Part shown: positions 18,924 to 45,829 of the stretch, one piece after another
How positions within the stretch are numbered: position 1 is the first letter of the stretch
How the letters are laid out: the number at the start of each line of letters is the position of its first letter
Sequence record: MW349128.1
DNA length: 64,000 nt
Origin: Staphylococcus phage Machias
Reading direction: 5' to 3' (one strand)
Notes under the pieces: model-generated
What the model saw: only the letters and a program-made list of their open reading frames with translations
Told to the model about the DNA's origin: nothing
Databases searched by the model: none
Program-made: the position numbers and the translations under genes

Positions 18924-20258
18924 TTATTTAAAGTTTCTATAGAAATCATCAAGTCCATTAAGAACAGATTCTTCTAAGAAAACTTTAATAGTTTTATTAC
19001 TTTCTTTAATTGAAGCTAATTGAGATCCTTTATCGTAAATGATATTAGATTCATCAGCTTTATCAAATCCCATATCTTCAGCGATATATTTGATATTGTC
19101 TGAATTTTCTTTAATATAAGTTAAAACTTCTCTAGGAGAAAATTCTGTAACTTTACCGTTAGAAAACATATCAATTGATTCATTAACCATTTGTAAATCA
19201 CTAGTATTGTAATTATTATGATTCTCTGAAATTATATTTTGGATATAAGAATCTTGATGTGATGGAATTACACGTTATCTTAACTATATGATTTTCATAT
19301 AGACGAGACTATATCTTCCTAATTTATATTAGGTAATATATTTAGTCGTTGAACGGAATTTAATCCGATGCTGATTATCTTAATAAAGATTTCCAGCAAT
19401 TAATATTATTTATACTAAGCAATAATTTTTTACCCAGTCATACGTACATCTTAGCTATATGGTTTCCATATAGACGAGACTATATCATACTCTTAGTAAG
19501 AGCGAATATATTTAGTCGTTGAACAACTTGTATTAAGTTGATGCTAATTGGCTTAATTAAACTTCTTAGCAATTAATATTCTTTTTCATTATATATCACT
19601 ATATAAAGCTGCTATAATTTAACAGATTAATCTTAAAGGTTTAGTAACTTCTACTTCACCATTAGGTTTTCTTTCTATTTTACTAAAACCACGCATTGAG
19701 AAAGATACATCAGATTTTTGTCCAATTAAACCTTTCATATCCTTACCAGCTGATGTTTGAGCTGTTTCTACTTCTCCCATTAATTTATTACCATTCCACC
19801 AAGTTCTAGTGATAATATGAGAAATATTACGTTGATCAATATACATTTGACGTTTAGGTTCATCACTTAAAGGATGACCTGCAAATTATTATTCTTTATT
19901 ATTTTAATAAAGATTAGACTATATCATCTAGGTTATATATTTAGTCGTTGAACAACTTGTATTAAGTTGATGCTGATTACTTTAAATAAGATTTCAGCAA
20001 TTAATATAATTTAACGTGAGCCATTTTAACCTAAAACTCACCATAAAAAGTTCTTCTTGCTAATTTTTCTTGTACTACTGGACTATCTAAACCACTTTGG
20101 ATAACATCTTTACGATAAACACGACCATTACGGTTTTGTCTATCAGCTTCTTGTAACTCAGCAATGAATCTAACTGATTTATTATTATCTTGAACTACTT
20201 CTGGTTGAGAAGTTGTATTAGATTCATTAATAATGTAAGCTTTAATATCTTTAGACAT
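18924..20258 (-). CDS. T4 gp21-like prohead core protease, split into 4 exons by three group I introns. Approximate exons: 20258..20034, 19881..19624, 19438..19424 (micro-exon), 19270..18924.
   Basis: Exon translations NRNGRVYRKD, GEF/GHP, ISHII, WWNGNKLMGEV, VSFSMRGFS align block by block with the NRNGRIYP / EWEHP / SSRGVG blocks of T4 gp21 as recalled from memory. Each ORF fragment stops within 0-2 codons of an intron 5' end, and reading-frame continuity can be restored across introns. Confidence 0.6.
19271..19423 (-). ncRNA. Group I intron (about 150 nt, no ORF) in the prohead protease gene
   Basis: P AATTGCTGGAAA, Q AATCAGCATC, R GTTCAACGACTAAAT, P8 CCTAATATAAATTAGG, S GAAGATATAGTC, P9 CTATATGAAAATCATATAG. 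Confidence 0.55.
19439..19623 (-). ncRNA. Group I intron (about 185 nt, no ORF) in the prohead protease gene, with covarying P/Q elements
   Basis: P TTAATTGCTAAGAAG and Q AATTAGCATC keep P4 pairing by compensatory changes; R GTTCAACGACTAAAT; P8 hairpin; S GATATAGTC; P9 hairpin CTATATGGAAACCATATAG. Confidence 0.55.
19882..20033 (-). ncRNA. Group I intron (compact, about 150 nt, no ORF) in the prohead protease gene
   Basis: On the minus strand: P TTAATTGCTGAAA, Q AATCAGCATC, R GTTCAACGACTAAAT, S GATGATATAGTC, then a P9 hairpin CTTTATTAAAATAATAAAG. Confidence 0.6.
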
Positions 20259-20345
20259 CTATTTATACTTCCTTTCAAATTTTGATTGTAAATTAAGAAT
20301 ATTTCTATGTTATTCTTCTGAATTTAACAATCTTTTATTAGATTA

Positions 20346-21383
20346 ATGAAATATATGATAGGAGGAAAATCTTTGAAAAGTTTTGAAGAAGTAAAAGATA
20401 TATTACTTAATATTAAAGAACAAACGGATGAAAATTCTTTTCCTAATGAAGCTTATGATTATTTAGTTGATATTGAGAAGTATGCTAATATTGATAGTTT
20501 TACGAATGATCAAATTAGAAAAATTGTAAAATATCTAGTAGGTATTAAAGATTCATTAGAAAGATACGAAATTGAAAATGAACAATCTGAAATGGCAATA
20601 AATATGGTTCTTCATAAAATAGAAACTCTTAAAGATAGATATAATACACTTTATATCAATAATCGTATTCCTAATAATGGTTATATTGATAGTTTATATA
20701 AAGAAGATTTTAGTTCAAATAAAAGTGCAGAATTTAATTTTAAACAATTAACTGTAGCTTTAGCTGAAAGTCCTGCTGGTTCTAAATTAGAAAGAAAAGC
20801 TGTTATTAACTTCTTAATGGAAGGTAGTATGAATTATCTTAATGAAGCTTATGATGATGACGATGATGAAGATTATCTTGATGGTCTTGATAGTAGCTTT
20901 GAAACCTCTAAAGAACCTAAAGTTGCTGAAAAGAATTTAAATAAATTAATTGGTTCTGTTAAGAAAGCTACTGCTTCATCTAAAAATATGGATGACAAAC
21001 AATTAGCTAAAGCAAATAGAATTCGTTTTGTAAGAGCTATTTTAACAGCAATAATCTTCTGTATTGGATTAGAAGTAAGTGCTGGTGTTATTGGTAAAGC
21101 TAAAACTGCTTTATTAGGATTATTGGTTGCTATTGTGTATAATAGTACTAAAAATAGTGAACTTAATAGATTAATTATTGTACTAGAAGAAAGAATTCAA
21201 TCATTAGAAAATAAAATCGATTCAACTGATAATGAACAAAAGAGAAAAGAATTAAGAATATTAAAATCAGACTTAGAAGGTCAATTGAAAAAAGCAAATT
21301 TCCAAAAGAAAGCTATAGATAAAACTAAAAATGCTATCTCTCGTGGAGATGTAAATGACAGTGGTAATGACTATGGATATTAA
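20346..21383 (+). CDS. Hypothetical protein (345 aa) with an acidic stretch, internal TM-like segment and coiled-coil C-terminus; possible morphogenesis or scaffold-associated protein
   Basis: Complete ORF immediately upstream of the acidic scaffold-like ORF, overlapping it by 29 nt. Confidence 0.35.
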   Translation: MKYMIGGKSLKSFEEVKDILLNIKEQTDENSFPNEAYDYLVDIEKYANIDSFTNDQIRKIVKYLVGIKDSLERYEIENEQSEMAINMVLHKIETLKDRYNTLYINNRIPNNGYIDSLYKEDFSSNKSAEFNFKQLTVALAESPAGSKLERKAVINFLMEGSMNYLNEAYDDDDDEDYLDGLDSSFETSKEPKVAEKNLNKLIGSVKKATASSKNMDDKQLAKANRIRFVRAILTAIIFCIGLEVSAGVIGKAKTALLGLLVAIVYNSTKNSELNRLIIVLEERIQSLENKIDSTDNEQKRKELRILKSDLEGQLKKANFQKKAIDKTKNAISRGDVNDSGNDYGY

Positions 21384-22044
21384 TAGAGATTTACTAACTG
21401 AATCAATAAATAAACTAATGAAACAAAATATTCTTAATGAAGCTGAAGGTGATGAAGATAATCAAGATCAGAATTCATTAGATGATACTGAATCAACTTC
21501 ATCAGAAGAAGAGAATAACGAAGAAACTGAAGAAGATAATTCTAATGATGATTCTAGTGATGATTCTACAGAAGATCAAGAAGAAAATGAAGATGAATTA
21601 GATAGTGATCCTGAACAACCTGAAGCTGAAGAAACTGACACAGATAATCCAGAAGAAACACCTGAAGAAACTCCAGAAGAAACACCTGAAGAACCCAAAG
21701 AAAGTAATTCAGATAAGTTTTTAAAATTACAAATATTTAATAAATTAGTTGAATTAAAAGATGTAATGGACAAATTTAACTACATTATTAATGACAGAAA
21801 TATGGAAAATTTTTCAGATTCAGAAAGAAACGATATGTTTGATATAACTGAATTAACTACAAAATCTCTTGATCAACTTAAAGATAATATAAATTTATTT
21901 AACAATAAATTTATAAATATTGTCGATGTAGATAAATCTGAGAAGTTATATAAAAAATTTGAAAATACTTACAAAGAAATATTTGACAATTATTTAAAAG
22001 AATACAATAAGTTAGAAAGTACAAAAAAGCGTAGTAAAAAGTAA
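21355..22044 (+). CDS. Highly acidic, Glu/Asp/Ser-rich protein (229 aa); scaffolding-protein-like, directly upstream of the major capsid gene
   Basis: Composition (EETPEETPEETPEE repeats), helical C-terminus, and position before the capsid gene. Confidence 0.4.
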   Translation: MTVVMTMDINRDLLTESINKLMKQNILNEAEGDEDNQDQNSLDDTESTSSEEENNEETEEDNSNDDSSDDSTEDQEENEDELDSDPEQPEAEETDTDNPEETPEETPEETPEEPKESNSDKFLKLQIFNKLVELKDVMDKFNYIINDRNMENFSDSERNDMFDITELTTKSLDQLKDNINLFNNKFINIVDVDKSEKLYKKFENTYKEIFDNYLKEYNKLESTKKRSKK

Positions 22045-22228
22045 AATAAATGAATTTAATTACTTTTAATAATAGTTTTATTATTCTTTTTAAATTTAAT
22101 AACAATAACATATGAAAGTAAAAATACCCTTGAATATAATGGTTATTTTATTTCTTAACAAATTTATATAATAAAATTAATAATATAAAACTACACGCTA
22201 ATATATTTGAAAAGGAGCAGAAAAAATT

Positions 22229-23824
22229 ATGTTGAGTGCAAATAGAATTAAAGATGAATTCTCTAAACTCTTAGAGGATATCGAACAAAATATCAACGAA
22301 CAGTACAAATTAAGTACAGTTGGTAATGACTTCGCTTCAATTGCTACTGATGACGTAGTATTTGAAAGTTATAAAGATCAATTATTAGAAGGTTTTGATG
22401 AAGAGGAGCAGCTTTCTTTAGAAAGTATGTTAGATAATACTCGTGAAGAAATCTTATTAGAGTCTTCAATGGGACCTATCCAACCTTATGCTTCATTATC
22501 TATGCCTATCTTAGTTAAACTTTGGGCTCGTTTAGCTTTAACTGAAGCTTTACCAACTCAAGTTGCTAATAAACCACAATTCACAGTGCCAATCTTAACA
22601 CCTTACGTTGTAGATGCTGATGGAAACAAACATGCATTACCTGAATCAATTAATAACACACCTGAAACTTTAGTAGGATTAGTTCCTCTTAAAGAAGAAG
22701 TTACAATTTCTGGTGGTAAAGTTGAAGCTTACGATTTATTCGATGGCTTAAAAGAAGGTAAAGAAGTTCGTAAAGGCATTGATCGTGTTGACCGTAAATT
22801 CAAAGTTGTAGAAGCTAAATGGAGCGATTCTTTTGATGTACGTACAAACGAAAAAGGATTTGTTGAATTAGGTTCTCAAGTTATTAAAATGGAAAATGAC
22901 TCTCTAATGGCAGAAGTTAAATACCCTACAAATGGTGACGGTGAAGTTGCTGTTGATACAGTATTAGGTAAAGTTGACGTTTCTAACGGTACTTTAGCTT
23001 TAGCTTCAACTTCTGGTAAATTAGAAGCAATTAAAATTAAAGGTTATGTAGCTTCTGAACAACATACTTCAGCTACTAACATTGAGCTTGGTTTAGATCG
23101 TAAAGATATCACTATCGATACAGCTCAACACATCGAGGCTACAGTACCTCTTGAAGTAATTCAAGATATGAAAGCTACTTATGATATCGATGGAGTTGCT
23201 CGTTTATCTGAAACAATGTCTCAATTATCTAGTCAAAAAGTTGACTTAGATATCATTGAATTCTTAGATCACGAATACGAAGAAACTGATGCTAAATATC
23301 ACTTCAGCTTCGATGTTTATCCACATAGTGATTACAGTGCTCACCCTAAAGATTGGTTAGAAGGTCTACGTGAAGTAATTGACCATACTACACAATCAAT
23401 GAAAAATGATTACAAACTTTACGATGTACAATTCGTTATCGTAGGTAACCCAGTTGACGTTCGTTTAATCCCTAACGTTTCTTGGACATTTAATGGTGGT
23501 ACTGAAGATTCTTACTCTAACGGAATCAAAATTAACTATTCATTAGGTGCTGCTTCAGGTACTGCTAACTACCGTATTATCGGTTCTGACTTAGTTCGTC
23601 AAGGTGAATTGACTATTATTGCAATTCCTCAACAAGACAACTATAAAACATTCATGTTCTACCCTTACACATTCAACGTTGTAAATGGTGGAGGATACTT
23701 GAATACTCGTAACCCTAATGTTCCTAACATGATGATGACTCGTAGATATACAGTTGAATCATTTGTTCCGATCATTGGTCGTATTACAATCAAAAACAAC
23801 AACGGTTCAGTATACGCTCGTTAA
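22229..23824 (+). CDS. Major capsid protein (531 aa)
   Basis: Strong SD AAAGGAG, higher GC and codon bias typical of a highly expressed structural gene, downstream terminator, position after the scaffold-like gene, size typical of a myovirus major capsid protein. Confidence 0.55.
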   Translation: MLSANRIKDEFSKLLEDIEQNINEQYKLSTVGNDFASIATDDVVFESYKDQLLEGFDEEEQLSLESMLDNTREEILLESSMGPIQPYASLSMPILVKLWARLALTEALPTQVANKPQFTVPILTPYVVDADGNKHALPESINNTPETLVGLVPLKEEVTISGGKVEAYDLFDGLKEGKEVRKGIDRVDRKFKVVEAKWSDSFDVRTNEKGFVELGSQVIKMENDSLMAEVKYPTNGDGEVAVDTVLGKVDVSNGTLALASTSGKLEAIKIKGYVASEQHTSATNIELGLDRKDITIDTAQHIEATVPLEVIQDMKATYDIDGVARLSETMSQLSSQKVDLDIIEFLDHEYEETDAKYHFSFDVYPHSDYSAHPKDWLEGLREVIDHTTQSMKNDYKLYDVQFVIVGNPVDVRLIPNVSWTFNGGTEDSYSNGIKINYSLGAASGTANYRIIGSDLVRQGELTIIAIPQQDNYKTFMFYPYTFNVVNGGGYLNTRNPNVPNMMMTRRYTVESFVPIIGRITIKNNNGSVYAR

Positions 23825-23851
23825 GAGTAACTTTACTTTTGTTATTTATAT

Positions 23852-23890
23852 ACCCATACATCTCTCTGAGGTGTATGGGTTTATTTTATA
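23852..23890 (+). terminator. Rho-independent terminator after the capsid gene (ACCCATACATCTC ... GAGGTGTATGGGT followed by TTATTTTAT)
   Basis: Stem-loop plus T-run. Confidence 0.6.
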
Positions 23891-23908
23891 AAAAGAAAGG
23901 AAAATTAT

Positions 23909-25078: not shown

Positions 25079-25092
25079 TAAGAAAGAAGTGA

Positions 25093-28000
25093 ATGAAGAC
25101 TATGGCTATAACAAAATTAAAGAAAAAAATTTATTACGATTATAAAACTAATAACGTAAGCTTTTTAAGAGTTGCTAAAGAACTTAAAGATAATAATATA
25201 CAAAATTATGGTCTACCATTAACTCTATATGATAAGAAATTAATTGGCGTTGATCCTTGGGATGAAGATTTAGATAATGAAATGAAAACTCGTGTTATTA
25301 GGGAAGCTAAACTTAATATATGGTTTTATTTAAGAGAAGTTATCAGAGTTCCAGTTCCAGGTGGTAAGGTAATGTATGAACTTCATAGAGGTAACTTAGC
25401 TATGACGTTTTGTATGCTGCATAATTTAGATACTGCAATAATGTTACCACGTCAGCACTATAAAACATATTCTGCAGTATGTTATTATTCATGGATTATG
25501 TTATTGGTAGGTAATAACTATACAATGTTATTTACACATAAATCATACTCGGACACTACTGAAAACCTTAAAAGATTAAAAAATCTATTCAAAGAGAAGT
25601 GTTTACCTGAATATGTATTAGCTAACTTTGGAGATAAAAATGATAGAGATAAAATTAATGAATTTTCTTTAGCAAGTAATAACAACACAATAAAAACAGT
25701 ATCACCTCCAACAAATGCTGAGAGTAAAATACGTGCTCTCATTAAACTCTATTAACTGCTGAAAAAGATACTAAACCAATCAGCATCAATCAAATTGATT
25801 GTTCAACGACTAAATATAGAGATAATTAATATTATAAGATATAGTCTAGTGTGTATGAATATCATACAATGTATTACGGCAAACAAAGCAGGAAGAGGTA
25901 GCACCGTATGTAGATGCAGTGCATAAAGATTTTTAATTGCTGGAAGACTAATAATGAAGTTAATCAGCATCACTTTAATTAGTGTTCAACGACTAAATAA
26001 AATCAATTTTAATAATTTTTACTGTTAACATTCCTTTATCAGTACGATAACGGAGGGATAAAATGCCTAAAGGTGTTAAAAGTAAAGAAAAATTCATAGA
26101 ACAAAAAAATAAAACTTTTAAAGAAATAAAAGATATCAATGGAGATAAATTTGAAATACTGGGAGAGTATAAAAATTCTAAAGAACCAATTAAATGTCAT
26201 TGTAATATATGTGATAGAGATTTTTTCTTACCTACTGAAAAACTAAGATTAAAAAGAAAATTCTGTAATAGAAAAGATTGTAGATATTCAGAAAAACCCA
26301 AGAATTCTAAAGGTAAAGAAACTTTTTTAATAGAATTAAAAGATAAGTTCGGATTTAATTATACTTATATTGAAGGATTCAATGGAATGAATAAAAAGTG
26401 TAGATTCCGTTGTGGAAAATGTGGAAATATAAGATATTTTGCAAAGCCTTCTACTCTAATGGATAAAAGAAAGAAGTATAATTCAGTAAACTGTAACAGA
26501 TGTATAAATAATGAAAATTATATCATATTAGATAGTCAAGAATTATCTAAAAAGACAACAGAAGAGTTTCAAGGTGAATTAGATATGATATTTGGATATA
26601 ATAAATTTAATGTGTTAACTGAATATACTAGGAGCAAAGATTATATCTATTTGAAGAGTAATGACTGTGGACACAAATTTAAAACGAGACCAGATGATAT
26701 ACTTAAAAGAAAAAGATGTAGTGTATGTTCTAAAAGTATAGGAGAAATTGCCATCATTGAATTACTTCAAGAGAATAATGTAGAATATGAGAATGAAGTT
26801 ACTTTTGAAGGATCTAGTTTTAGATTTGATTTTTATTTTAAAAAAATAAATACTGTAGTTGAAGTAGATGGAAAAGGTCATATAAAAGGTTATGGAAATT
26901 TCATTAATGATAAAAGAAACAAAAGCAAAAGAACACCTGAAGATATAAAAAAATTAGATAATGAAAAAGATGAATTTATAAGAAGCAAAGGAATAAATAT
27001 GATACGTCTCCCTTACCAGAATAGAATAAATGAAGAATTAATTATCCCTATGAAAAAATTATTAAAATTATGATATAGTCTGATCTGCATGGATTATCAT
27101 GTAGTTTAACGTAAATGACCTATGGTTTGGCTTGATGAGTGGGCGTTTATACCGCATAATCAAGTAATGTTTGAAGCGATGAGTAAAAAGGCTCCATCTT
27201 TATAGAAATATAGATGATGAATAATATTAACTGCTGAAAAGTTTAAAAACCAATCAGCATCATTAAATAATGTTCAACGACTAAATTTATTAAATCTTAA
27301 AAAGATTATGATATAGTCTGATCTGCATGGATTATCATGCAGCTAACATAAATGACCAGCAATAAGTACAGCTTCAAGAATTGCAAAAGAAAATGGTTCT
27401 CCTTATGGACTTCTTATCACAACTACACCTAAAATGACTGGGTGAAGATAAATTAAAATTTATCTTAAGGACTTTATTAATTGCTGAAAGGTCCTTAGAG
27501 CTTAATGAGCTACAACGTGACTGGCAACAGTGAGCGTGATATGCTTAAAAATCATTAAGATTGGAAAATCAGCAGCTAATTTTCAATTTAATAAATTATT
27601 AAATCAATAATGAACAACTCTTTATACAAAAGATGTAGGAGTTGGTAATTTTGGATTTTTATGAAAAATTAAATAAAAAATTTGATAACAGTATAATAAC
27701 AAAAGAAAAATATATAAACGGCAATGAAAAGATTAAATTCTATTGTAAAAATTGTAAAAATTATTTTTATTCTAAACCTAGAAAAATTATTGAATCATCT
27801 TATAAATCATGTCATTTATGTAGGAAAAGGGAAAAAGAAAATATATTTAGGAATAATCTCATTAATATGATAAATAAAGAAATATATGAAATTATTGAAA
27901 TGAAAGATCCTATAAAAAATAATGAAAAATTTTCTTTAAAACATAAAGAATGTGGAAATATCTTTTCTATATCAGTGAGTAATTTTAAAAAAGGAAGAAA

Positions 28001-30190
28001 ATGCCCATATTGCTCAAATAAGCCTATGAAAAGGGATCAAAATTTCTTTTTAGAAAAAATAAATAATATTGATTCAAGTTTCTTAAAAGAATATGAATTA
28101 AAAAGCAATTATATAAGCGTTAACGAAAATATTAAAATTAAACATAAAGAATGTGGAAATATCTTTAATACTACCCCTAATAGAATTTATAGAGGTAATA
28201 GATGTAGTATGTGTTCACATAAATCTGATAAATATAATTTTAAAGAGGTAAAGAGTATAATAGAAAAAGATGGAAAATTTAAACTTTTATCTAATAATTA
28301 TATAAATAATAAATATAAATTAAAAATAAAATGTCTTAACTGTGGTAATATACAAGAGAAAAGTTTAGTTACATTTCAAGATAAAAGAAATAGAAAATGT
28401 ATATGTGAAAAATATTCTTTACCAATTCGTTATATAACAAATTTTTTAATAGATAAAAATATAAATTTTGAGCTAGAAAAAAGATTTGATAATTGTAGAA
28501 ATATTAGACCTTTACCCTTCGATATTTTTATAAATGATTTTAATATTCTAATTGAATATGATGGGGAACAACATTTTAAACCAATATATGGTATAGAAAA
28601 ACTCAATAAAACTAAAATAAATGATGAAATAAAAAATAATTTTTGTAATAAAGAAGGAATAGAATTAATTAGAATAAACTGTTATGATAATTATGAAGAT
28701 AAAATTGAAAATTTAGTTCAACGACTATCGAAAGTTGAGTATACATCGTGAGGATATATACAATATAAATGAGTAGAGTACAGCCAAGCGGTTAGTTTTT
28801 AAGTGATATTAGCTTAATATAATTCTATTAAATGGAAACATAAAGACGTGTATATTAACACATATACGTAAGATATAGTCTCAACGTTTAGGGAAAACCT
28901 AAAGAAGTTCATAAGAGAACTGGTATAGATTAGCGATCTATATTGAAGATTTTGAGTACTCTCGACACATCTCAAGGGCAATTTTTCTTTCAACAAATGA
29001 ATGAAGCAGCTCAATGGAATGAAAAAATATATGATTATTTTATTGATAGTGAAGAAGAAGGAAATTCTAAATTAGAAAAATACATGGAAGATAATTCAAA
29101 TAATGAATTCATGTATATAGAATATTCATATAAAGAATTAGGTAAAGATGAAAATTGGTTAGAAAAACAAAAGAGACAAATTGGTTCTTTAGAAGCTGTT
29201 AAACGTGAGATATTATTGGAATGGGCTTATAGTTCTGATGATTCATTATTCTCTGAAGAACAAATGACTGAAATATCTATGTATGCTAATAAAGAAATAT
29301 ATAATACTCTTGAATTTAATATTGATGGTAGAACTTATTATGTAAATATGATTAAATATATGGATAATATTACAGAGAAAAATTGGCTTATTGGTATTGA
29401 TATGTCTGGTGGTTTAGGACGAGATAATACAGCGTTTACTGTAGTGGATCCAGCTACTTTGGAACCAGTAATGACTTTTAAAAATAATGTAATTAATGGA
29501 CCTACATTCAGAAAATTAATTAAAGAATTGGTTAGTTTCTATATACCTAACGCTATATTAATACCTGAACGTAACTATGCAGGTTTAACAGTAATTGATC
29601 ATATGATATCTTATGATGGTTTAGAATCTAATTTATTCTATACGCTTAAAACTCGTGTAGCTGAAAAGCAAGTAGAAAATAAAAGTTTATTTAATGAAAT
29701 GTCTAGATATAGCAAAACTGAAAAAGTTAAAAAAGAAACTCGTAGATATGGTATTGATACAACTAAAAAATCTCGTGATATAATGTTAAATGAAATATTA
29801 TCTATGCTTGTTGAAGAAAAACCACATTTAATTAATAATAAACCACTTTTCCAAGAAATCAAATCTTTACAAATGATTAAAGGACGTATTGACCATCCAC
29901 CGGGAGGTCACGATGACTTAATGATGTCTTATTTATTCTGTTTATATGCGTATTACTATGAAAAAGATATTAATAAATTTGTAAAAATTAAATATGGTTC
30001 TAAACTCTCACCTAACAGTGAAAATGCAGAAGGAATGAAAAAAGAACAAGAAGCTAGAAGAAAAGATATTGCTTCAATTAAACGTATCAATAGTGTTATT
30101 GAAGGAAATGATATGAGTAATTCTATATTTGGTCAACAACAAAAACCAATGGATAACAATAATAAACGTATTATGGATTTATTCAAATAA
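25093..30190 (+). CDS. terL: Terminase large subunit, split into 5 exons by four group I introns. Approximate exons: 25093-25716, 25879-25907, 27118-27201, 27355-27439, 28937-30190.
   Basis: Walker A-like LPRQHYKT in exon 1; an Arg-finger-like ANKAGRGST micro-exon; Walker B VWLDEWAFIP in exon 3; coupling motif GLLITTTP in exon 4; nuclease domain (IGIDMSGG...D) in exon 5. Block order matches T4 gp17. Each exon fragment ends in a stop codon just inside an intron. Confidence 0.75.
25717..25878 (+). ncRNA. Group I intron T1 (about 160 nt, no ORF) in terL
   Basis: P TTAACTGCTGAAAAAG, Q AATCAGCATC, R GTTCAACGACTAAATAT, S AAGATATAGTC, P9 hairpin GTGTATGAATATCATACAAT, terminal G at 25878. Confidence 0.55.
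25908..27117 (+). mobile_element. Group I intron T2 in terL carrying a homing-endonuclease ORF in P8
   Basis: P TTAATTGCTGGAAG, Q AATCAGCATC, R GTTCAACGACTAAATAAAA before the ORF; S GATATAGTC overlaps the ORF stop (27071-27080); P9 and terminal G at 27117. Confidence 0.6.
26063..27073 (+). CDS. Intron-encoded homing endonuclease, Vsr/DUF559 (EDxHD, PD-(D/E)xK) type, with N-terminal Cys-rich zinc-finger-like repeats
   Basis: C-terminal FRFDFYFKKINTVVEVDGKGH ... GINMIRL matches the Vsr-like endonuclease signature; repeated CxxC...CxxC modules; lies inside an intron. Confidence 0.55.
   Translation: MPKGVKSKEKFIEQKNKTFKEIKDINGDKFEILGEYKNSKEPIKCHCNICDRDFFLPTEKLRLKRKFCNRKDCRYSEKPKNSKGKETFLIELKDKFGFNYTYIEGFNGMNKKCRFRCGKCGNIRYFAKPSTLMDKRKKYNSVNCNRCINNENYIILDSQELSKKTTEEFQGELDMIFGYNKFNVLTEYTRSKDYIYLKSNDCGHKFKTRPDDILKRKRCSVCSKSIGEIAIIELLQENNVEYENEVTFEGSSFRFDFYFKKINTVVEVDGKGHIKGYGNFINDKRNKSKRTPEDIKKLDNEKDEFIRSKGINMIRLPYQNRINEELIIPMKKLLKL
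27202..27354 (+). ncRNA. Group I intron T3 (about 153 nt, no ORF) in terL
   Basis: P TTAACTGCTGAAAAG, Q AATCAGCATC, R GTTCAACGACTAAAT, P8 AATCTTAAAAAGATT, S GATATAGTC, P9 CTGCATGGATTATCATGCAG, terminal G at 27354. Confidence 0.6.
27440..28936 (+). mobile_element. Group I intron T4 in terL with an extended P5 region and a homing-endonuclease ORF
   Basis: P2 hairpin GATAAATTAAAATTTATC; P TTAATTGCTGAAAGG; Q AAAATCAGCAGC; R GTTCAACGACTATCG inside the ORF 3' end; S AAGATATAGTCTC at about 28872; terminal G about 28936. Confidence 0.55.
27642..28751 (+). CDS. Intron-encoded homing endonuclease, Vsr/DUF559 (EDxHD) type, paralogous to 26063..27073; TTG start
   Basis: C-terminal PFDIFINDFNILIEYDGEQHF ... 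GIELIRI; repeated HKECGNIF ... CPYC zinc-finger-like modules. Confidence 0.55.
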   Translation: MVILDFYEKLNKKFDNSIITKEKYINGNEKIKFYCKNCKNYFYSKPRKIIESSYKSCHLCRKREKENIFRNNLINMINKEIYEIIEMKDPIKNNEKFSLKHKECGNIFSISVSNFKKGRKCPYCSNKPMKRDQNFFLEKINNIDSSFLKEYELKSNYISVNENIKIKHKECGNIFNTTPNRIYRGNRCSMCSHKSDKYNFKEVKSIIEKDGKFKLLSNNYINNKYKLKIKCLNCGNIQEKSLVTFQDKRNRKCICEKYSLPIRYITNFLIDKNINFELEKRFDNCRNIRPLPFDIFINDFNILIEYDGEQHFKPIYGIEKLNKTKINDEIKNNFCNKEGIELIRINCYDNYEDKIENLVQRLSKVEYTS

Positions 30191-30198
30191 AATATATA

Positions 30199-30240
30199 AG
30201 AGTAATGATGATTAACTTCGTCATTACTCTATTTTATTGG
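30199..30240 (+). terminator. Rho-independent terminator after terL (AGAGTAATGATG ... CGTCATTACTCT followed by ATTTTATT)
   Basis: Stem-loop plus T-run. Confidence 0.55.
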
Positions 30241-30362
30241 AAATTTTTATAAAATGTTATTAACTAAGTTGTATAGTAGAGTTGATTTTAGAAAAGATAA
30301 AAGAAAATTTTAGTTATTCGTCAGAATAATATATTATATAAAAATAAAAAGATAAATGGGAA

Positions 30363-31163
30363 GTGAAAATTTTGACTAAGACATACTTAATTGATGACAA
30401 AGATGATTTAGAAATGGTTAAAGAAGAATACGATGAAATTATTATGAATATTTCTGAAGATATTATGGTAGATAATATTAAAGATCAAATTCATGAATCT
30501 AATACAAAGCAATTTTATACTGATCAACATCATAAGAATTTCTTTGAATACTTTGAAATCCGATTTAATTTTGTATTAGAAAGATATAAAGATGATAATG
30601 ATATTTTAAATAGAACTAAAGAAGTTTATAATGATATTTTAAATGAAATATTAGAATCAATTCAAGATACTTATCAATTATCTATTGAATTTTCAGAAGA
30701 TATTTTAGTTGAAGATAAAGCTCAGTATATTAAATCATTATACTATTTCTTTGTATTAAATAAAAAAGAAATGATTAATAATCTATTTATTAATTATATT
30801 GAAAAGAATATTGTACATTTATCTAAGACTTATGAAGATAATTTAAATGATGATATTAATACTTCATTATCATATAACAATTTAAAGAAAACTATTGATA
30901 ATGAATACACAGCTATGATTTATTCTATTCCAGATATTATTGAAGGAATTTATATTGGAGATAATGAAGATATTATTGAAACTATAATTCTAGATGAAGA
31001 ATCTGAATTGAATAATTATCAGATTGATAAAATGTTAGTAGAACAATCAATTACTGATGTTAGATTTGATAATAATCTTATTAACGTATTAAGAGAAACA
31101 TTTGAAGATAATAACGTATTATTTAGAGAAATCCAGTATTATTTCATTAATAAATATAAATAA
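30363..31163 (+). CDS. Hypothetical acidic protein (266 aa)
   Basis: Complete ORF. Confidence 0.4.
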   Translation: MKILTKTYLIDDKDDLEMVKEEYDEIIMNISEDIMVDNIKDQIHESNTKQFYTDQHHKNFFEYFEIRFNFVLERYKDDNDILNRTKEVYNDILNEILESIQDTYQLSIEFSEDILVEDKAQYIKSLYYFFVLNKKEMINNLFINYIEKNIVHLSKTYEDNLNDDINTSLSYNNLKKTIDNEYTAMIYSIPDIIEGIYIGDNEDIIETIILDEESELNNYQIDKMLVEQSITDVRFDNNLINVLRETFEDNNVLFREIQYYFINKYK

Positions 31164-31169
31164 GGAGAT

Positions 31170-31922
31170 TTGTCAAAAATGGTAGAAGAGAATAAATATG
31201 TTGAAGAATTAGAAAAAGATTTACAAAATGCGATGGAAGAATTTGATAAAGAAAATGAAGAATTAGAAAAAGAAATCGAAGAAAAAAAGAAAGATATCAA
31301 TAAAGAATTATCAACTTACTATGGTAAAGATAATATTGATATCAATGACGTACTATCTGTAGATTCTAAAGTTCAAAGATATCAAGAAAAATTAGATTTC
31401 ATTAATGGGGATTTAACTTTTGAAAAAGATGAAGATATTCCTGAAAGATTAAAACCTTTAAAAGATTTAAAGATTAATGATACCAAACAAATTGAAAATA
31501 TCATTGAACAAATTAAAGATAGTAAAGAAGCTAAACATATGTTAGATAATATTACTATTAGTAAATTACCTGTTAAAGAAAATAAACTTAAAAAAGTAAA
31601 TGAAAAATTAAATATGAAAATTTACAATCATAATAAAATTCATGGAAATGAAAATAATGAATACAATTATATTGATCTAGAAGAGATCTATGAAAATCTA
31701 AAAAATGCATTAGACAGTGATAGTTTCAAAGAAACAAATTCATTGTATAAATTTATGTGTTCATTAGGTTCATACATGTTACAAAATTATGAAAAATCTC
31801 CTTATTATATAAAATCTCTTTCTGAAAATGTTGATTATATTGGAAAATTCGGTAATAAATTAGAACAGAACGAAGATTTTATCAAAGTAATTAATAGTAT
31901 CTTAATTAGATACCAAAAATAA
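31170..31922 (+). CDS. Hypothetical coiled-coil protein (250 aa)
   Basis: Complete ORF. Confidence 0.4.
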   Translation: MSKMVEENKYVEELEKDLQNAMEEFDKENEELEKEIEEKKKDINKELSTYYGKDNIDINDVLSVDSKVQRYQEKLDFINGDLTFEKDEDIPERLKPLKDLKINDTKQIENIIEQIKDSKEAKHMLDNITISKLPVKENKLKKVNEKLNMKIYNHNKIHGNENNEYNYIDLEEIYENLKNALDSDSFKETNSLYKFMCSLGSYMLQNYEKSPYYIKSLSENVDYIGKFGNKLEQNEDFIKVINSILIRYQK

Positions 31923-31960
31923 ATTATAAAAATTAGAATAGAAAGAGGTTAGAGTTAGTT

Positions 31961-32194
31961 ATGCCAGAAATTAAATTTTATACAAAGAATAATTGTAGTA
32001 AATGCATGTTTAGTAAAATGGTTCTAGGTAATCAAGGAATTGAATATACAGAAATTAATATTGATGAGGATGAAAAAGCTAAAGAAGATCTTTTATCTAA
32101 AGGCTATCAATCTTTACCAGTAATTGATTTCGGTACTGATGTTGTAGTTGGAAACGATCCAGCTAAATTAAATCAAGTATTATCTACATTATAG
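31961..32194 (+). CDS. nrdH: NrdH-like glutaredoxin-like redoxin
   Basis: CxxC motif (NCSKC), 77 aa, first gene of an nrdHIEF-ordered cluster. Confidence 0.7.
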   Translation: MPEIKFYTKNNCSKCMFSKMVLGNQGIEYTEINIDEDEKAKEDLLSKGYQSLPVIDFGTDVVVGNDPAKLNQVLSTL

Positions 32195-32212
32195 AAAGGA
32201 TGATTTATCATT

Positions 32213-32416
32213 ATGAATACTATCTTTGAAAATAAAGAATCAGTAGATTATAAAAAACTTGCTGAAATGGTTCAAAACGGTCAAGTTGAAGAATTAAATG
32301 ATAAACCTTTATACGAAGGACCTTATAAAGAAAATTTCAGTATTGAAGGTTGGAATTATACCTTTGAATCTGATGGTAGTTTTTGGAAATGGGAATATCG
32401 TCAAGTAGGATATTAA
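32213..32416 (+). CDS. Small hypothetical protein (67 aa)
   Basis: Complete ORF within the RNR cluster. Confidence 0.3.
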   Translation: MNTIFENKESVDYKKLAEMVQNGQVEELNDKPLYEGPYKENFSIEGWNYTFESDGSFWKWEYRQVGY

Positions 32417-32511
32417 ATATATGAATTAAAATGATCTATCATAAGGATAACTTATGATGGATCTATTTTAAACCTCAAATTTAGAAAATATAATTAAATG
32501 GAGAGATTTTC

Positions 32512-32934
32512 ATGAAATTGGTTTATTTTACTTTAACAGGTAATAGTAAAAAATTTGCAGATAAATTAGACAAAACAATAGTTGGAGAACCTATTGAACT
32601 TAATAGAAATAACTGTGAAGAAATAGAAATGGATGAAGATTATATACTTATATGTGGATCTTATAATACTCCTCATGCAATTTATAATCACGTTAAAAAG
32701 TTCTTTAGTAATGGAATGAATTTAAGTAGATGTATTGGTATTGTAGGTTCAGGTAATAGAAATCTTAATTATGAATTCTTAACTACACCTAAGAAATTAT
32801 GTAATGATTTTAATTTAGAATTATTAATGGGTATAGAATTATTCGGAATTAAAAATGAACATATCGAATTAAATAAAAAATTAAAAGAATTAAATAACTC
32901 TAGTATTATAAATAAAGATTTAGAATTAGTATAG
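32512..32934 (+). CDS. nrdI: NrdI flavodoxin-like protein
   Basis: N-terminal YFTLTGNSKKFADKL motif typical of NrdI, positioned before nrdE. Confidence 0.65.
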   Translation: MKLVYFTLTGNSKKFADKLDKTIVGEPIELNRNNCEEIEMDEDYILICGSYNTPHAIYNHVKKFFSNGMNLSRCIGIVGSGNRNLNYEFLTTPKKLCNDFNLELLMGIELFGIKNEHIELNKKLKELNNSSIINKDLELV

Positions 32935-32954
32935 ATATAAGGAGATAGGATAAA

Positions 32955-35900
32955 ATGCCAAAAGAAATAGATTTAACTTCAGAAAAATTTAAAGATTATT
33001 CATATAACGAATTAAACTCAAGAGGTTCACAATTAAAAGATGGTAATTTAGATTTAGAATTTGAATTAGCTTCAGTTAAAAAATACTTTTTAGATAATGT
33101 AAATAAAAATGTAAGATACTTTAAAACTTATAAAGAAAAAATTAACTATTTAGTAGATAATGATTATATTGATGGAGATATGATCAAAAATTATGATTTT
33201 GAATTTATTAAAGGATTAATGAAAGAATTAATGGCTTATAAACATAGATTCACTCGTTTATTAGGAGCTAAAAAATTCTATGAACAGTATGCAATGAAAG
33301 ATGATGCAGGAGAAATCTTATTAGAACTATATGAAGATAGAATTTTATTTGTAGCTTTATATTTAGCTGACGGTGATGAAGAATTAGCTAGAAATATTGC
33401 TAATGAAATTATTACAGGAACTTTCCAACCTGCCACACCAACATTCCTTAATGCAGGTAGAGTACGTTCTGGAGAATTAGTAAGTTGTTTCTTATTAACT
33501 ATGGAAGACTCTTTATCATCTATTTATAGAAATATCTCTAATGTAGCTCAATTAAGTAAACGTGGTGGAGGCGTAGGTAAACTATATACGTTTCATTAAG
33601 ATTTTTGAAAATTATAAATCTTAAATGATACTAATGCCTACGAAAAATCGTGTGAACTCATACTAAAGGGGTGTCTAATTATAATAATTAGGCTAACGGT
33701 CATAGCAGTTAATTATGCTGGTAAGAGAGACTAAGTCCTATTAAATTGATAGGATAGAGTTAATACCGTGCCAAGCTTTATACTATTCATAGCTTCTAGA
33801 TGGGAGCTTGATAAAATGAAAGAAAATGAAATATTTAAACAATTAGAAGAATTTCCAGACTATGATTTTGGTAGTCATGGAACTATAATATCTTATAAGA
33901 CTAAAAATCCTAGAAAAATTATACCCAAGATTGATAAGAATGGTTATCATGAAGTAGGATTGAGAGATTATACAAATAAAAGAAAATACAGAAAAGCACA
34001 TAGACTTATTCTATTAGCACATAATTATATAGAAAATTCAGAAGATATGCAAGTAAATCATATAAATGGTAAACCAGATGACAATCGTTTATCTAATTTA
34101 GAATGGTGTACATCTAAAGAAAATATGAAACATGCATATAATATTCTTAGTAAAAATAAAGATAATAATAAATTTAAAATAGAAGTTTTGATTAAAGATA
34201 AAAATGATAATATTTTTAATTTTGAATCTATGAGTAAAGCTTCAGTATTTATCAAAAGTTCTGTTGGTGGTCTAAGATCTTTCTGGGTTAGAAGAAAAAG
34301 ACCTACAAATGAATTTATTAAATATAAAGATTATGATATAATGTTTAAGCCTAGTGAAAACTGGATTAAAGAATATGGAAAAGAAATTGTTTAAAGTTAT
34401 GAATAGTAAATTGAAGGTGTAGAGACTATCGAAAAGAAAGTTTAATTACTTTACTTAGTAGAGTAGGTCAGAGATTAGTACTGATCGAAGTGCATGGCAT
34501 ATTATTTTAAATAATATGAAGATATAGTCCACTCATTATAGAAATATAGTGGTTAAAGTGATTAGTTTAAGTAATTTACGTGCTGACAATGATCCAATTA
34601 AAGGTGTTGAAGGTGCAGCTTCAGGTGTAGTTCCAGTTATGAAAGTATTTGAAGATACTTTATCATATGTAAATCAACTGGGTTAATTTTAATGGCTCAG
34701 TATAAATATTGTTAATTGCTGGAAAAGTTTACAAGCTTAATCAGCATCAATCAAGATGATTGTTCAACGACTAAATATAATAATACTTATTAATAGTATA
34801 AGATATAGTCTAATCTATATGAATTTCATATAGTTAATATAAATGCAACGTAATGGAGCTGGAGCTCTTTATTTAAATATTTTCCATAAAGATGTAGTAA
34901 AATTCTTAGATACTAAGAAAGAAAATGCTGATGAAAAAGTAAGATTAAAAACTATTTCATTAGGTTTAACAGTTCCAGATAAATATTATCAATTAGTTAA
35001 AGAAAATAAATCATTATATACATTTAGTCCATATGACATTAAAAAATATTACGATTTAGATTTCGATAGTATTGACTTTAATACTTATTATGATATCTTT
35101 GTAGATGATAAACGTATTAGTAAAGAGAAAATGTATGCTCGTGATTTAGAAACTACTATTAGTAAATTACAACAAGAATCTGGTTATCCTTATATCATTA
35201 ATATTGATACAGCTAATAGAGCTAATCCAATTAGTCATGGTACAATTAAAATGAGTAACTTGTGTAGCGAAATTCTACAAGTACAATACCCTTCATTAGT
35301 TGACGATAATCAACAATATGTTAAAACAGGAACAGACGTTTCATGTAATTTAGCTTCAACTATTGTACCTGGTTTAATGAAATCAAAAGACTTTGGTAAA
35401 TCAGTTGGAACTATGTTAAGAAGTTTAAATTCAGTAGCAGAAAAATCTAATATTGAAGCTGTACCTACAGTTAAGAAAGCTAATGATCTATTCCATACAG
35501 TTGGTTTAGGTGCAATGGGATTACACACTTATTTAGCTGAAAACCATATTCAATATGGATCAGAAGAATCTAAAGACTTTACTAATATTTATTTCATGTT
35601 ATTAAACTATTGGACATTAGTTGAATCAAATAAAATTGCTAAAGAAAAAGATGAGTCATTCTATTTATTTGAAAAAACTGAATATGCTGATGGCTCTTAC
35701 TTTGATAAACGTTATATTGGTAAAAATATTCAACCACGTACTGAAAAAGTTAAAGAATTATTTGAAGATATCTTTATTCCATCTGATAGTGATTGGGAAC
35801 AATTAAGAAATAATATTGTTATGGACGGTCTATACAATCAAAATAGATTAGCTGTAGCACCTAATGGTTCTATTGGTTATGTTAGAGAAGTATCACCTTC

Positions 35901-45236: not shown

Positions 45237-45829
45237 TTAAGTAAACATATTCAATCCCGGATTATTTGGATGGGGATTATATTGGGATTTATATCCATAA
45301 ATTGCATCATCAATTTGTTGTTGAAAAACTCTTCCTTTAATTACTTGCATACTTCTAGAATATTGAGTTTTCATATTAATTTGAGCTTTATCAATAATGG
45401 ATAGTTGATCTCTTCTAATTCCTGCTAAGCAATCAATATAAGATAATAATCCTGTATTAAATTTCATTCTTTGGAATGATTTAGAAGCCATTAAGTTTGG
45501 ATACATATCTCTAATATTAATAGATACAGTAATTTCTCTTGGGAAACCATCTGCAGTCCATGTACCTTCTTCACCACGAACTATATTCATTGAAGTTATT
45601 ATACCTGTATTACATTCAAATCTACCAGGACAATTAGCTCTAATAATAAACGGTTGCTTATAAGAGAATATTGAATCTTGTAAAGGTAAAGCTAATACTA
45701 ATAATGAAAGAAATGGTAAATATACATTGTCAAATATAGATTGTGGATCTCCATAAGCACTATAGAATTTAAATTCTAGATTATAAGTACGGTCAAAAGT
45801 TGAATTCATCCAAACCTGGTTTGTTAAAT
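45237..45829 (-). CDS. Downstream exon (exon 2) of a tail/baseplate gene interrupted by the IStron-like element. The open frame extends upstream of the annotated ATG to about 45829.
   Basis: The frame stays open for 10 codons upstream of the ATG (NQDLTNQVW), up to a G at 45830 that can serve as the intron terminal G. Confidence 0.35.

What the first reader, a model, noticed from the sequence alone, without database searches (positions are those of the whole stretch)
19271..34845. A family of about ten group I introns sharing a near-identical catalytic core, most only 150-185 nt long
What first looked like a dispersed repeat is the classical group I P/Q/R/S core, always in the order P-Q-R-S followed by a short P9 hairpin, and always inside an interrupted conserved gene. 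Copies sit in the protease (about 19271-19423, 19439-19623, 19882-20033), terL (25717-25878, 25908-27117, 27202-27354, 27440-28936), nrdE (33579-34560, 34684-34845) and the IStron (about 47260-47440, listed separately). One copy (19439-19623) carries compensatory changes in P and Q (GCTAA/TTAGC) that preserve P4 pairing, which argues for functional RNA rather than decaying repeats. The six ORF-less copies have only about 85 nt between P and S and total lengths of roughly 150-185 nt. That places them below the roughly 200-nt size of the smallest commonly cited group I ribozymes (for example the Azoarcus intron). Ten introns in 64 kb is an exceptional density.
Basis: seen in the sequence. Interest (0 to 1): 0.8.

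Follow-up and report, generated by a model that had tools for sequence, protein, structure and literature searches.

The report
Miniature group I introns in phage
Three essential genes of this Staphylococcus jumbo phage are split by ten group I introns, six of them only 153-179 nt long, which by sequence makes them smaller than any group I intron shown to self-splice that I know of; splicing itself has not been tested.

Summary
The window comes from a Staphylococcus jumbo phage 96-98% identical to AH12 and PB50. It holds ten group I introns.

- Six are ORF-less and 153-179 nt long: three in the protease gene, two in terL, one in nrdE.
- One has the same core with an endonuclease ORF in P8 (terL, 1210 nt).
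- One is an IStron with the same core.
- Two are larger introns with different cores.

Intron-less alleles in sister phages fix the boundaries. Removing the introns restores full-length protease, TerL and NrdE.

Each intron has an exon-guide P1 helix, P3-P9 with the P3/P7 pseudoknot, and a terminal G. The helices covary (94% paired against 27-48% in controls), while P4 and P7 never change. Rfam's group I model aligns end to end but scores 33-47 bits against a threshold of 50, so standard scans miss them.

AH12 carries 30 copies. Some members lack P2, P8 or P9, and one in MarsHill is 127 nt. Exons are as short as 11 nt. Similar cores occur in many uncultivated huge-phage contigs.

Intron-split genes were already reported in these phages, but I found no description of the RNA class or its small size. 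Self-splicing is untested, and terL intron 3 has a non-canonical junction.

The parts
19882..20035 (-). Protease intron A, 154 nt, ORF-less, no P2 and no P8. P1 is exon GUGAGU paired with guide GCUCAC.
   Evidence: Boundaries from SA1 alignment. Core hit 103.6 bits. Rfam 32.6 bits. PB50 carries the same intron with a 10-nt P8 hairpin that is deleted here.
19443..19621 (-). Protease intron B, 179 nt, ORF-less, with P2. P1 is CUGU/GCAG. P4 carries the compensatory pair UGCUA/UAGCA.
   Evidence: Own model 139.4 bits. Rfam 45.5 bits, E 3e-10, model positions 1-253.
19432..19442 (-). 11-nt micro-exon TATGACTGGGT lying between two introns.
   Evidence: Aligns to SA1 protease nt 484-494. It is needed for the in-frame 843-nt spliced product.
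19273..19431 (-). Protease intron C, 159 nt, ORF-less, no P2. P1 is CUGGGU/GCUUAG.
   Evidence: Own model 133.6 bits. Rfam 41.6 bits.
25726..25878 (+). terL intron 1, 153 nt, ORF-less, no P2, P5 almost absent. P1 is GAGAGU/GCUCUC.
   Evidence: Own model 106.5 bits.
25908..27117 (+). terL intron 2, 1210 nt. Same compact core, with a 336-aa ORF (26063-27073) in the P8 loop. Preceded by the 29-nt exon 25879-25907.
   Evidence: Split core hits at 25927-26052 and 27041-27104. PB50 annotates the ORF as a homing endonuclease. MarsHill and LY01 carry ORF-less introns of 157 and 156 nt at the same site.
27184..27354 (+). terL intron 3, 171 nt (or 170), ORF-less, with P2. The junction is non-canonical.
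   Evidence: Own model 108.8 bits. Conserved Arg in five relatives requires the junction ATGAG|...G|ACC. Keeping U27184 in the exon gives a stop at codon 268.
27431..28954 (+). terL intron 4, 1524 nt. Larger, different group I core with a 369-aa ORF (27642-28751) carrying CapR/treble-clef and DUF2726 (Vsr-like) domains. P1 is CACCU/GGGUG.
   Evidence: Absent precisely at this junction in PB50. ORF domains. P/Q/R/S read in the sequence. No Rfam hit; only partial hits with my own model.
33579..34560 (+). nrdE intron 1, 982 nt. Different group I core with an HNH_3 + NUMOD4 endonuclease ORF (33768-34394). P1 is GUAGGU/GCCUAC.
   Evidence: Absent precisely in PB50. Pfam domains. Rfam matches the 3' half at 39 bits, E 3e-8.
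34684..34845 (+). nrdE intron 2, 162 nt, ORF-less, no P2. P1 is CUGGGU/GCUCAG.
   Evidence: Own model 123.2 bits. Rfam 37.7 bits. PB50 has a 714-nt intron with an HNH ORF in P8 at the same site.
45816..47457 (-). IStron, 1642 nt. Same compact core (47413-47285) with P2, followed by a TnpB ORF (47199-46006) and a 3' tail ending in G. P1 is GGAU/GUCC.
   Evidence: Own model 127.2 bits. OrfB_IS605 and Cas12f1-like_TNB domains. Precisely absent from the AH12 virion-protein gene.

Best explanation
These are genuine group I introns, transcribed as part of the protease, terL and nrdE pre-mRNAs and removed by group I chemistry.

Inferred mechanism:
1. The last 3-7 exon nucleotides pair with an internal guide sequence to form P1, with a U.G wobble at the cleavage site.
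2. A stripped-down core binds guanosine, which attacks the 5' splice site. This core has P3 (6 bp), P4 (5 bp), a vestigial P5, P6 (4-6 bp), an invariant P7 (GACUA/UAGUC plus a bulged C), a short or absent P8 and a short P9.
3. The terminal G, 11-12 nt after P9, replaces the guanosine, and the exons are ligated.

The six small introns are the ORF-less state of a multi-copy family. Sibling copies at the same sites carry homing-endonuclease genes in the P8 loop. The family has about 30 copies in the sister genome AH12.

Shown here: the anatomy, covariation, precise presence/absence alleles and restoration of the reading frames. Inferred: catalysis itself, and whether it needs protein help.
For: 1. 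Rfam RF00028 aligns over its whole length to the small copies at E 2e-6 to 7e-11.
2. My own model finds 7 cores in the window, 30 in AH12 and 86 in IMG/VR loci.
3. Covariation. AH12 copies: 94.3% of cells paired against 27-48% with slid partners. P4 and P7 are invariant, and every pair of P8 and P9 and 5 of 6 pairs in each of P3 and P6 show changes on both sides. IMG/VR copies: 92.6% paired against 38-50%, with 34 of 34 pairs showing double changes.
4. Guide and exon covary across sites: CGAU/GUCG, GGAU/GUCC, GAGU/GCUC, GAAU/GUUC, CUGU/GCAG. They also covary at one orthologous site: GCACCGU/GCAGUGC in the window against CUACUGU/GCAGUAG in MarsHill.
5. Intron-less alleles exist exactly at the predicted junctions in SA1, PALS_2, PB50 and AH12.
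6. Removing the introns gives 843-, 2040- and 2202-nt ORFs without stops, 94%, 80% and 97% identical to the SA1 proteins.
7. Exons of 11, 29, 66 and 76 nt cannot be expressed on their own.
8. A P8-less allele is kept in three phages, in an essential gene.
Against: - No transcript or biochemical data exist for these phages.
- All small copies score below Rfam's gathering threshold (32.6-47 bits against 50), and the default scan of the window finds nothing.
- The cores lack the peripheral helices and the obvious tetraloop-receptor contacts that stabilise known small group I ribozymes. Some copies lack P8 or P9, which are normally core elements. Autonomous folding is therefore doubtful.
- terL intron 3 cannot be spliced in frame with both U at -1 and a terminal G.
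- The covariation alignments were fitted to the model, which inflates pairing percentages somewhat.
Confidence: 0.87

Rival explanations
1. The small RNAs keep group I anatomy but are not autonomous ribozymes. They splice only with a phage- or host-encoded cofactor: a maturase-like endonuclease from a sibling intron, an RNA chaperone, or another factor that replaces the missing peripheral helices.
For: - P2, P8 or P9 is missing in some copies, and P5 is vestigial.
- GC content is 21-29% and MFE z-scores are only -1.6 to -4.8.
- About 30 near-identical cores per genome would make one shared cofactor economical.
- In Bastillevirinae phages, four of eight validated introns spliced only in infected cells (PMC11878797 abstract).
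Against: No candidate cofactor was identified. All catalytic joining segments and P7 are strictly conserved, as expected for an active ribozyme. From my own knowledge, engineered sunY mini-ribozymes of about 180 nt are active.
Confidence: 0.4
2. The elements are decaying, inactive intron relics or a dispersed DNA repeat. The interrupted genes would then be pseudogenes, or be expressed as separate fragments or by translational bypass.
For: Public annotations of PB50, AH12 and LY01 list the pieces as separate CDSs. Default Rfam scans find nothing.
Against: - Prohead protease, TerL and NrdE are single genes in SA1 and PALS_2.
- Exons of 11-76 nt cannot be translated alone.
- Reading through terL intron 1 hits a stop at 25753.
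- Compensatory changes in the helices and in the guide/exon pairing show selection on the RNA structure.
- The copies occur only inside genes, in the sense orientation.
Confidence: 0.03
3. The small copies spread to new sites by RNA-level reverse splicing into transcripts that match the guide sequence. Reverse transcription and recombination would follow. In this view they did not spread by endonuclease-driven DNA homing.
For: - Members of one subfamily sit at different genes whose upstream exons share only the 4-7 nt complementary to the guide. Examples: CGAU at 5 sites, GGAU at 3, and ACUGGGU in both the protease and nrdE genes.
- The copies are ORF-less.
- MarsHill-like phages encode a retron-like reverse transcriptase of unknown role (preprint 10.1101/2020.12.14.422802).
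Against: - DNA-level insertion followed by selection for splicing competence would leave the same signature.
- Guide sequences do differ between close relatives, so guides also adapt after insertion.
- Sibling introns with endonuclease ORFs at the same sites and co-conversion-like tracts point to ordinary homing at occupied sites.
Confidence: 0.2

Closest known systems
Azoarcus sp. BH72 pre-tRNA-Ile group I intron (205 nt, subgroup IC3). From my own knowledge, it is usually cited as the smallest natural self-splicing group I intron.
   Same: ORF-less and compact, with only the conserved core helices, U.G at P1 and a terminal G.
   Different: Azoarcus keeps P2, P8 and P9 with tetraloop-receptor contacts, is GC-rich, sits in a tRNA anticodon loop and is single-copy. 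The phage introns are 127-179 nt and 21-29% GC, and they often lack P2. Some lack P8 or P9. They lie in protein-coding genes and number about 30 per genome.
Group I introns of Staphylococcus phage Twort (three in orf142, two in nrdE) and other phage introns such as those of Bastillevirinae
   Same: Several self-splicing introns per gene in phages of Firmicutes. They target nrdE, terL and other conserved genes. HNH or Vsr-like endonuclease ORFs sit in peripheral loops.
   Different: The ribozyme part of Bastillevirinae introns spans 350 +/- 108 nt, and whole introns average 802 nt (PMC11878797). From my own knowledge, the Twort ribozyme is about 250 nt with P7.1/P7.2. The introns here are half that size or less. 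blastn finds relatives only in Staphylococcus jumbo phages.
Intron-disrupted genes of MarsHill-like Staphylococcus jumbo phages and of Bacillus phage AR9 (Korn et al. preprint 10.1101/2020.12.14.422802; Lavysh et al. 2016, not readable here)
   Same: These are the same phage clade and partly the same insertions. Disruption of the prohead protease, terL, RNA polymerase, DNA polymerase and gyrB genes was reported from protein alignments.
   Different: The preprint never uses the term 'group I' and gives no RNA structure or sizes. It could not reconstruct TerL. My model finds no copy in the first 50 kb of AR9, and Rfam finds none in its two-intron gyrA gene, which lies in that stretch.
IStrons (group I intron fused to an IS605-family tnpB element, for example CdISt1 of Clostridioides difficile)
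   Same: The copy at 45816-47457 has exactly this layout: ribozyme at the 5' end, then TnpB, then a 3' tail ending in G.
   Different: Its ribozyme belongs to the compact phage family, and it sits in a phage virion-protein gene.
[quoted passage not shown]
   Same: Claimed group I derivatives far below 200 nt.
   Different: The abstract calls them putative or degenerate; I did not read the paper's structural detail. The phage introns keep P/Q/R/S, P3, P4, P6, P7 and the joining segments intact.

Membership tests
Group I intron (Rfam RF00028) | Score at or above the curated gathering threshold of the family covariance model | tested here: not met
   The default scan gives no hit. With lax filters the model aligns over its full length at 32.6-47.0 bits against a threshold of 50, with E 2e-6 to 7e-11. 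The shortfall comes from deleted P2, P5, P6 and P8 segments and the AT-rich composition.
Group I intron (Rfam RF00028) | Conserved core helices P3-P9, including the P3/P7 pseudoknot, supported by covariation | tested here: met
   94.3% of cells paired against 27-48% in slid controls. P3, P5, P6, P8 and P9 covary; P4 and P7 are invariant. An independent set of 53 distinct IMG/VR copies gives 92.6% paired. Individual members lack P8 or P9.
Group I intron (Rfam RF00028) | Conserved sequence elements P, Q, R, S and joining segments J4/5, J6/7, J8/7 | tested here: met
   AAUUGCUG, AAUCAGCAUC, GUUCAACGACUAAAU and (A)GAUAUAGUC are present in all seven compact copies in the window. They match the RF00028 consensus letters.
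Group I intron (Rfam RF00028) | P1 formed by the 5' exon and an internal guide sequence, with a U.G wobble at the 5' splice site | tested here: met
   Met for 9 of the 10 introns in the window. Guide and exon covary across sites. The exception is terL intron 3. Two AH12 copies use a C.A wobble instead.
Group I intron (Rfam RF00028) | Terminal G at the 3' splice site | tested here: met
   All ten introns end in G at the junction fixed by intron-less alleles. In the compact copies this G lies 11-12 nt after P9.
Group I intron (Rfam RF00028) | Precise excision that restores the host gene | tested here: met
   Tested by comparison only. The spliced ORFs equal the intron-less SA1 genes in length (protease, nrdE) or nearly so (terL) and contain no stops. 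Empty sites exist in sister phages.
Group I intron (Rfam RF00028) | Guanosine-dependent self-splicing | not testable with these tools
   Needs in vitro transcription and splicing assays, or RNA from infected cells.
IStron | Group I ribozyme at the 5' end fused to an IS200/IS605-family tnpB element, inserted as one intron in a gene | tested here: met
   Core at 47413-47285 (127.2 bits). TnpB domains present. The whole 1642 nt is precisely absent from the AH12 homologue, with U|...G| ends. Applies only to the 45816-47457 copy.

The most novel reading that the evidence does not exclude
These would be the smallest natural, autonomously self-splicing group I ribozymes (127-180 nt), including working forms without P2, P8 or P9. 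The family would have multiplied to about 30 copies per genome by guide-sequence-directed transposition, that is, reverse splicing into matching transcripts, possibly using the phage's own reverse transcriptase. That would make this phage group the first tractable system for RNA-level group I mobility.
Probability: 0.2. Interest if true: 0.85.

Novelty: new variant of a known kind. Interest (0 to 1): 0.66.

Why it matters
If these introns splice as predicted, nature has reduced the group I ribozyme to about 110-130 nt of core. That is well below the 205-nt Azoarcus intron, and some versions lack helices normally considered core (P8, P9).

- **Catalytic architecture.** The family sets a natural lower bound and offers compact scaffolds for ribozyme engineering, including permuted-intron circular RNA production.
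- **Annotation.** Standard Rfam scans miss the whole family. Essential genes in PB50, AH12 and LY01 are therefore deposited as fragments, and the TerL of MarsHill-like phages could not be reconstructed in the original description.
- **Mobility experiments.** The system combines about 30 paralogous copies, intron-poor sister phages (SA1, S6, DC4, PALS_2) and a culturable host. That makes it unusually suited to testing how ORF-less group I introns move, which has never been shown directly.
- **Micro-exons.** Exons of 11-15 nt, one of them encoding the RNA polymerase catalytic motif, show how far gene fragmentation can go in a virus.

Tried and rejected
- **Default Rfam scans.** Scans of the whole window and of 18500-36000 gave nothing. 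Only short stretches with lax filters gave hits. terL intron 4 gave no Rfam hit at all.
- **AR9 as a characterised relative.** My model finds no copy in AR9 1-50000 and Rfam finds none in its gyrA introns. AR9 introns therefore cannot stand in as experimental support. The AR9 paper and the J Virol version of Korn et al. are not held.
- **IMG/VR loci.** tblastn of SA1 protease, TerL, NrdE, MCP and NrdF against the IMG/VR loci returned nothing. Those loci interrupt other genes, for example RNA polymerase beta'.
- **Size record.** Literature searches for a documented size record returned nothing usable. One search was wasted on an unspecific phrase.
- **P1 finder.** An automatic P1 finder needed manual curation because AT-rich hairpins compete with the true P1.
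- **Rejected readings.**
  - Inteins and translational bypass: the inserts contain stops in frame, have no protein domains, and several lengths are not multiples of 3.
  - MITE-like DNA repeat: the copies are strictly intragenic, sense-oriented, and show guide/exon pairing.
- **terL intron 3.** I tried to resolve its junction by alternative P1 registers and alternative terminal nucleotides. No fully canonical, in-frame solution exists.

Full report
**Source.** The window is from a Staphylococcus jumbo phage. Region 19000-34000 is 97.8% identical to vB_StaM_PB50, 96.4% to AH12, and about 82% to PALS_2, S6, DC4, SA1, MarsHill, Madawaska and LY01. In SA1 the prohead protease, terL and nrdE genes are each a single uninterrupted gene. 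This gave me intron-less references.

- The 15-mer GTTCAACGACTAAAT occurs 8 times against 0.18 expected.
- Every copy has the same order of elements: AAUUGCUG (P), AAUCAGCAUC (Q), GUUCAACGACUAAAU (R), GAUAUAGUC (S), then a hairpin.
- A covariance model built from the seven compact cores (117-131 nt from P3 to P9) finds exactly those seven in the 64 kb, at E 1e-16 to 3e-23.
- The same search gives split or partial hits for the three ORF-containing introns and nothing convincing elsewhere.

**Boundaries.** I used spliced alignment to the SA1 genes plus the rule that the exon ends in U and the intron ends in G.

| Gene | Intron | Coordinates | Length (nt) |
|---|---|---|---|
| protease (minus strand) | A | 20035-19882 | 154 |
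| protease | B | 19621-19443 | 179 |
| protease | C | 19431-19273 | 159 |
| terL | 1 | 25726-25878 | 153 |
| terL | 2 | 25908-27117 | 1210 |
| terL | 3 | 27184-27354 | 171 |
| terL | 4 | 27431-28954 | 1524 |
| nrdE | 1 | 33579-34560 | 982 |
| nrdE | 2 | 34684-34845 | 162 |
| virion-protein gene (minus strand) | IStron | 47457-45816 | 1642 |

An 11-nt exon (19442-19432) lies between protease introns B and C. The internal terL exons are 29, 66 and 76 nt.

Joining the exons gives ORFs of 843, 2040 and 2202 nt with no internal stop. They are 94.0%, 80.2% and 96.6% identical to the SA1 proteins, and the protease and nrdE lengths are identical to SA1.

Independent empty sites confirm the junctions:
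- PB50 lacks terL intron 4 and nrdE intron 1 exactly where predicted.
- AH12 lacks the IStron exactly.
- AH12, PALS_2 and SA1 lack terL intron 3.

**Is it group I?**
- Rfam's default scan is negative. When short stretches are searched, so that the speed filters relax, RF00028 aligns over its full length (positions 1-253) to the small copies. The scores are 45.5, 41.6, 32.6 and 37.7 bits in the window and 47.0 and 45.1 bits in MarsHill, at E 2e-6 to 7e-11. All are below the gathering score of 50.
- The alignments delete P2 and most of P5, P6 and P8. They match the consensus letters of J6/7-P7-J7/3 and J8/7-P7.
- Each intron forms P1 between the last exon nucleotides and a guide sequence, with U.G at the cleavage site: GUGAGU/GCUCAC, CUGU/GCAG, CUGGGU/GCUUAG, GAGAGU/GCUCUC, CUGGGU/GCUCAG, CACCU/GGGUG, GUAGGU/GCCUAC and GGAU/GUCC.
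- The terminal G lies 11-12 nt after P9 in all the compact copies.
- MFE folding recovers P4, P5, P6, P7, P8 and P9 in most copies, with z-scores from -1.6 to -4.8.

**Covariation.**
- The near-identical genome AH12 was searched over 257.5 of its 264.7 kb. It carries 30 compact cores.
- On their alignment, with P7 written as a pseudoknot, 94.3% of cells pair. With slid partners the figure is 27-48%.
- P4 and P7 never vary, apart from one G-C to A-U change in P4. Every pair of P8 and P9, and 5 of 6 pairs in each of P3 and P6, shows changes on both sides.
- In 100 of those loci the model finds 86 cores, 53 of them distinct, spanning 112-173 nt. These are 92.6% paired against 38-50% in controls, and 34 of 34 pairs show double changes.
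- Both alignments were fitted to the model, so the percentages lean high. The slid controls and the number of double changes still leave little doubt.
- P1 covaries as well. Across sites the 4-nt guides track their exons: CGAU/GUCG, GGAU/GUCC, GAGU/GCUC, GAAU/GUUC and CUGU/GCAG.
- At terL site 656, synonymous exon differences between the window and MarsHill are matched by guide changes.

**How small, and what is missing?**
- Most copies have no P2. P5 is 0-5 bp, P6 4-6 bp, P8 4-6 bp and P9 6-8 bp.
- Protease intron A and three further AH12 copies have no P8 at all. PB50 carries the same intron with a 6-bp P8, and the window, AH12 and LY01 alleles differ from it by a clean 10-nt deletion. The P8-less form is thus maintained in an essential gene in three phages.
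- In MarsHill and LY01 the terL intron at site 641 is 127 nt. After P7 there are only 8 nt (UAAAAUAG), so there is no P9.
- That intron is followed by a 14-nt exon and then a 157-nt intron.
- For comparison, Bastillevirinae phage introns average 802 nt, with 350 +/- 108 nt of non-coding ribozyme (PMC11878797).
- The 205-nt Azoarcus figure is from my own knowledge. I found no paper in the library that documents a smaller complete group I intron. Only putative or degenerate fungal elements of 56-81 nt turned up (PMC3160393).

**Origin and dynamics.**
- The small introns are the ORF-less state of a mobile family.
  - At nrdE site 746, PB50 has a 714-nt intron with an HNH ORF in P8, where the window has 162 nt.
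  - At terL site 656, the window has a 1210-nt intron with an ORF in P8, where MarsHill and LY01 have 157 and 156 nt.
  - At terL site 797, the window and PALS_2 have introns of 1524 and 1511 nt with a CapR/Vsr-like ORF, where AH12 and LY01 have 156 and 161 nt.
- terL has seven insertion sites across these phages, six of them within 175 nt.
- Exon sequence next to the insertion sites differs from the intron-less PB50 allele far more than the 2% genome average, as expected for co-conversion.
- blastn of one small intron finds 98 places in five Staphylococcus jumbo phages and none in SA1, S6, DC4 or PALS_2. The family is therefore rich in some lineages of the clade and nearly absent from others.
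- In cellular genomes the same R...S pattern is rare: 41 loci in 185,579 species. Those loci score weakly with my model, at 37-48 bits.

**Target sites.** Members of one subfamily occupy different genes whose upstream exons share only the guide complement. For example, ACUGGGU precedes both protease intron C and nrdE intron 2. This fits reverse-splicing transposition. It equally fits DNA insertion followed by selection for splicing, so I treat it as a lead, not a result. The review literature says there is no direct evidence for the RNA pathway (PMC3984707).

**Unexplained.**
- For terL intron 3, the family rule gives P1 as GAGU/GCUC, so cleavage should follow U27184. The terminal G is G27354. 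That combination leaves a +1 frameshift and a stop at codon 268.
- The conserved Met-Arg-Pro-Ala in five relatives, which use three different Arg codons, requires ATGAG|...G|ACC, with G at position -1. PB50 has the same sequence.
- The family does tolerate other non-U junctions. In AH12, two introns flank a 15-nt exon (A-D-F-D-G of the RNA polymerase catalytic motif), and in both the exon ends in C paired with an A in the guide. These junctions are fixed by the intron-less SA1 allele.

**Prior knowledge.**
- Korn et al. reported intron-disrupted protease, terL, polymerase and gyrase genes in MarsHill-like phages from protein alignments. They did not class or fold the RNAs, and they could not reconstruct TerL.
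- The DC4 paper found no introns with Rfam.
- A review of crAss-like phages called 14 introns per genome unprecedented. AH12 has 30 compact cores alone.
- The finding is therefore not a new kind of element. It is an undescribed, extreme variant of group I introns, and its function is inferred rather than shown.

Noticed in passing
window 27179-27190 and 27350-27358 (same sequence in L002/PB50): terL intron 3 cannot be spliced in frame with both U at -1 and a terminal G. Conserved Arg requires the junction ATGAG|...G|ACC. The canonical choice gives a frameshift.
   Followed up: partly
L128 (AH12) 11340-11760, minus strand: A 15-nt exon, GCTGACTTTGATGGC, encodes A-D-F-D-G of the RNA polymerase beta' catalytic motif and lies between two compact introns. 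Both upstream exons end in C paired with A in the guide, a C.A wobble instead of U.G. The junctions were confirmed against intron-less SA1 (L174).
   Followed up: yes
L125 (MarsHill) 10420-10717; L126 (LY01) 10832-11129: A 127-nt group I intron without P2 or P9 is followed by a 14-nt exon and then a 157-nt intron. The P1 hairpin of the second intron sits where P9 of the first would be. This resolves the TerL that the MarsHill authors could not reconstruct.
   Followed up: partly
window 27400-27430, 28955-28970, 33560-33578, 34561-34575 compared with L002: Exon sequence flanking terL intron 4 and nrdE intron 1 differs from intron-less PB50 at several positions within about 15-30 nt. The genome average divergence is about 2%. 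This looks like co-conversion or endonuclease-resistance tracts.
   Followed up: no
window 27071-27080 and 28716-28751: The endonuclease ORFs overlap ribozyme core elements. The stop codon of the terL intron 2 ORF overlaps the S element, and the 3' end of the terL intron 4 ORF contains the R element.
   Followed up: no
window 45816-46005: There are about 190 nt between the TnpB stop codon and the 3' splice site of the IStron. This is presumably the TnpB guide-RNA scaffold, so the guide and the 3' splice site must share sequence.
   Followed up: no
L063 6700-7900, minus strand (IMG/VR contig 3300045988_181688, 218 kb): Five compact group I cores lie within 1.2 kb of an uncultivated phage contig, around an exon encoding P-L-N-A-D-F-D-G-D of RNA polymerase beta'. 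L077 and L101 hold similar tandem arrays.
   Followed up: partly
window 48649-48744 and 52294-52362: Runs of 9-nt periodic repeats lie on the minus strand, inside a 1914-aa ORF (48456-54200).
   Followed up: no
window 1680-4703: Five copies of a 60-nt segment, plus longer repeats of 120-300 nt at 72-87% identity, suggest a tandem family of paralogous genes.
   Followed up: no
L126 (LY01) 12414-14358: A 1945-nt insertion at terL site 1619 carries a CDS annotated as 'mobile element protein'. It may be a second IStron-type element inside terL. My alignment did not give canonical U/G ends.
   Followed up: no
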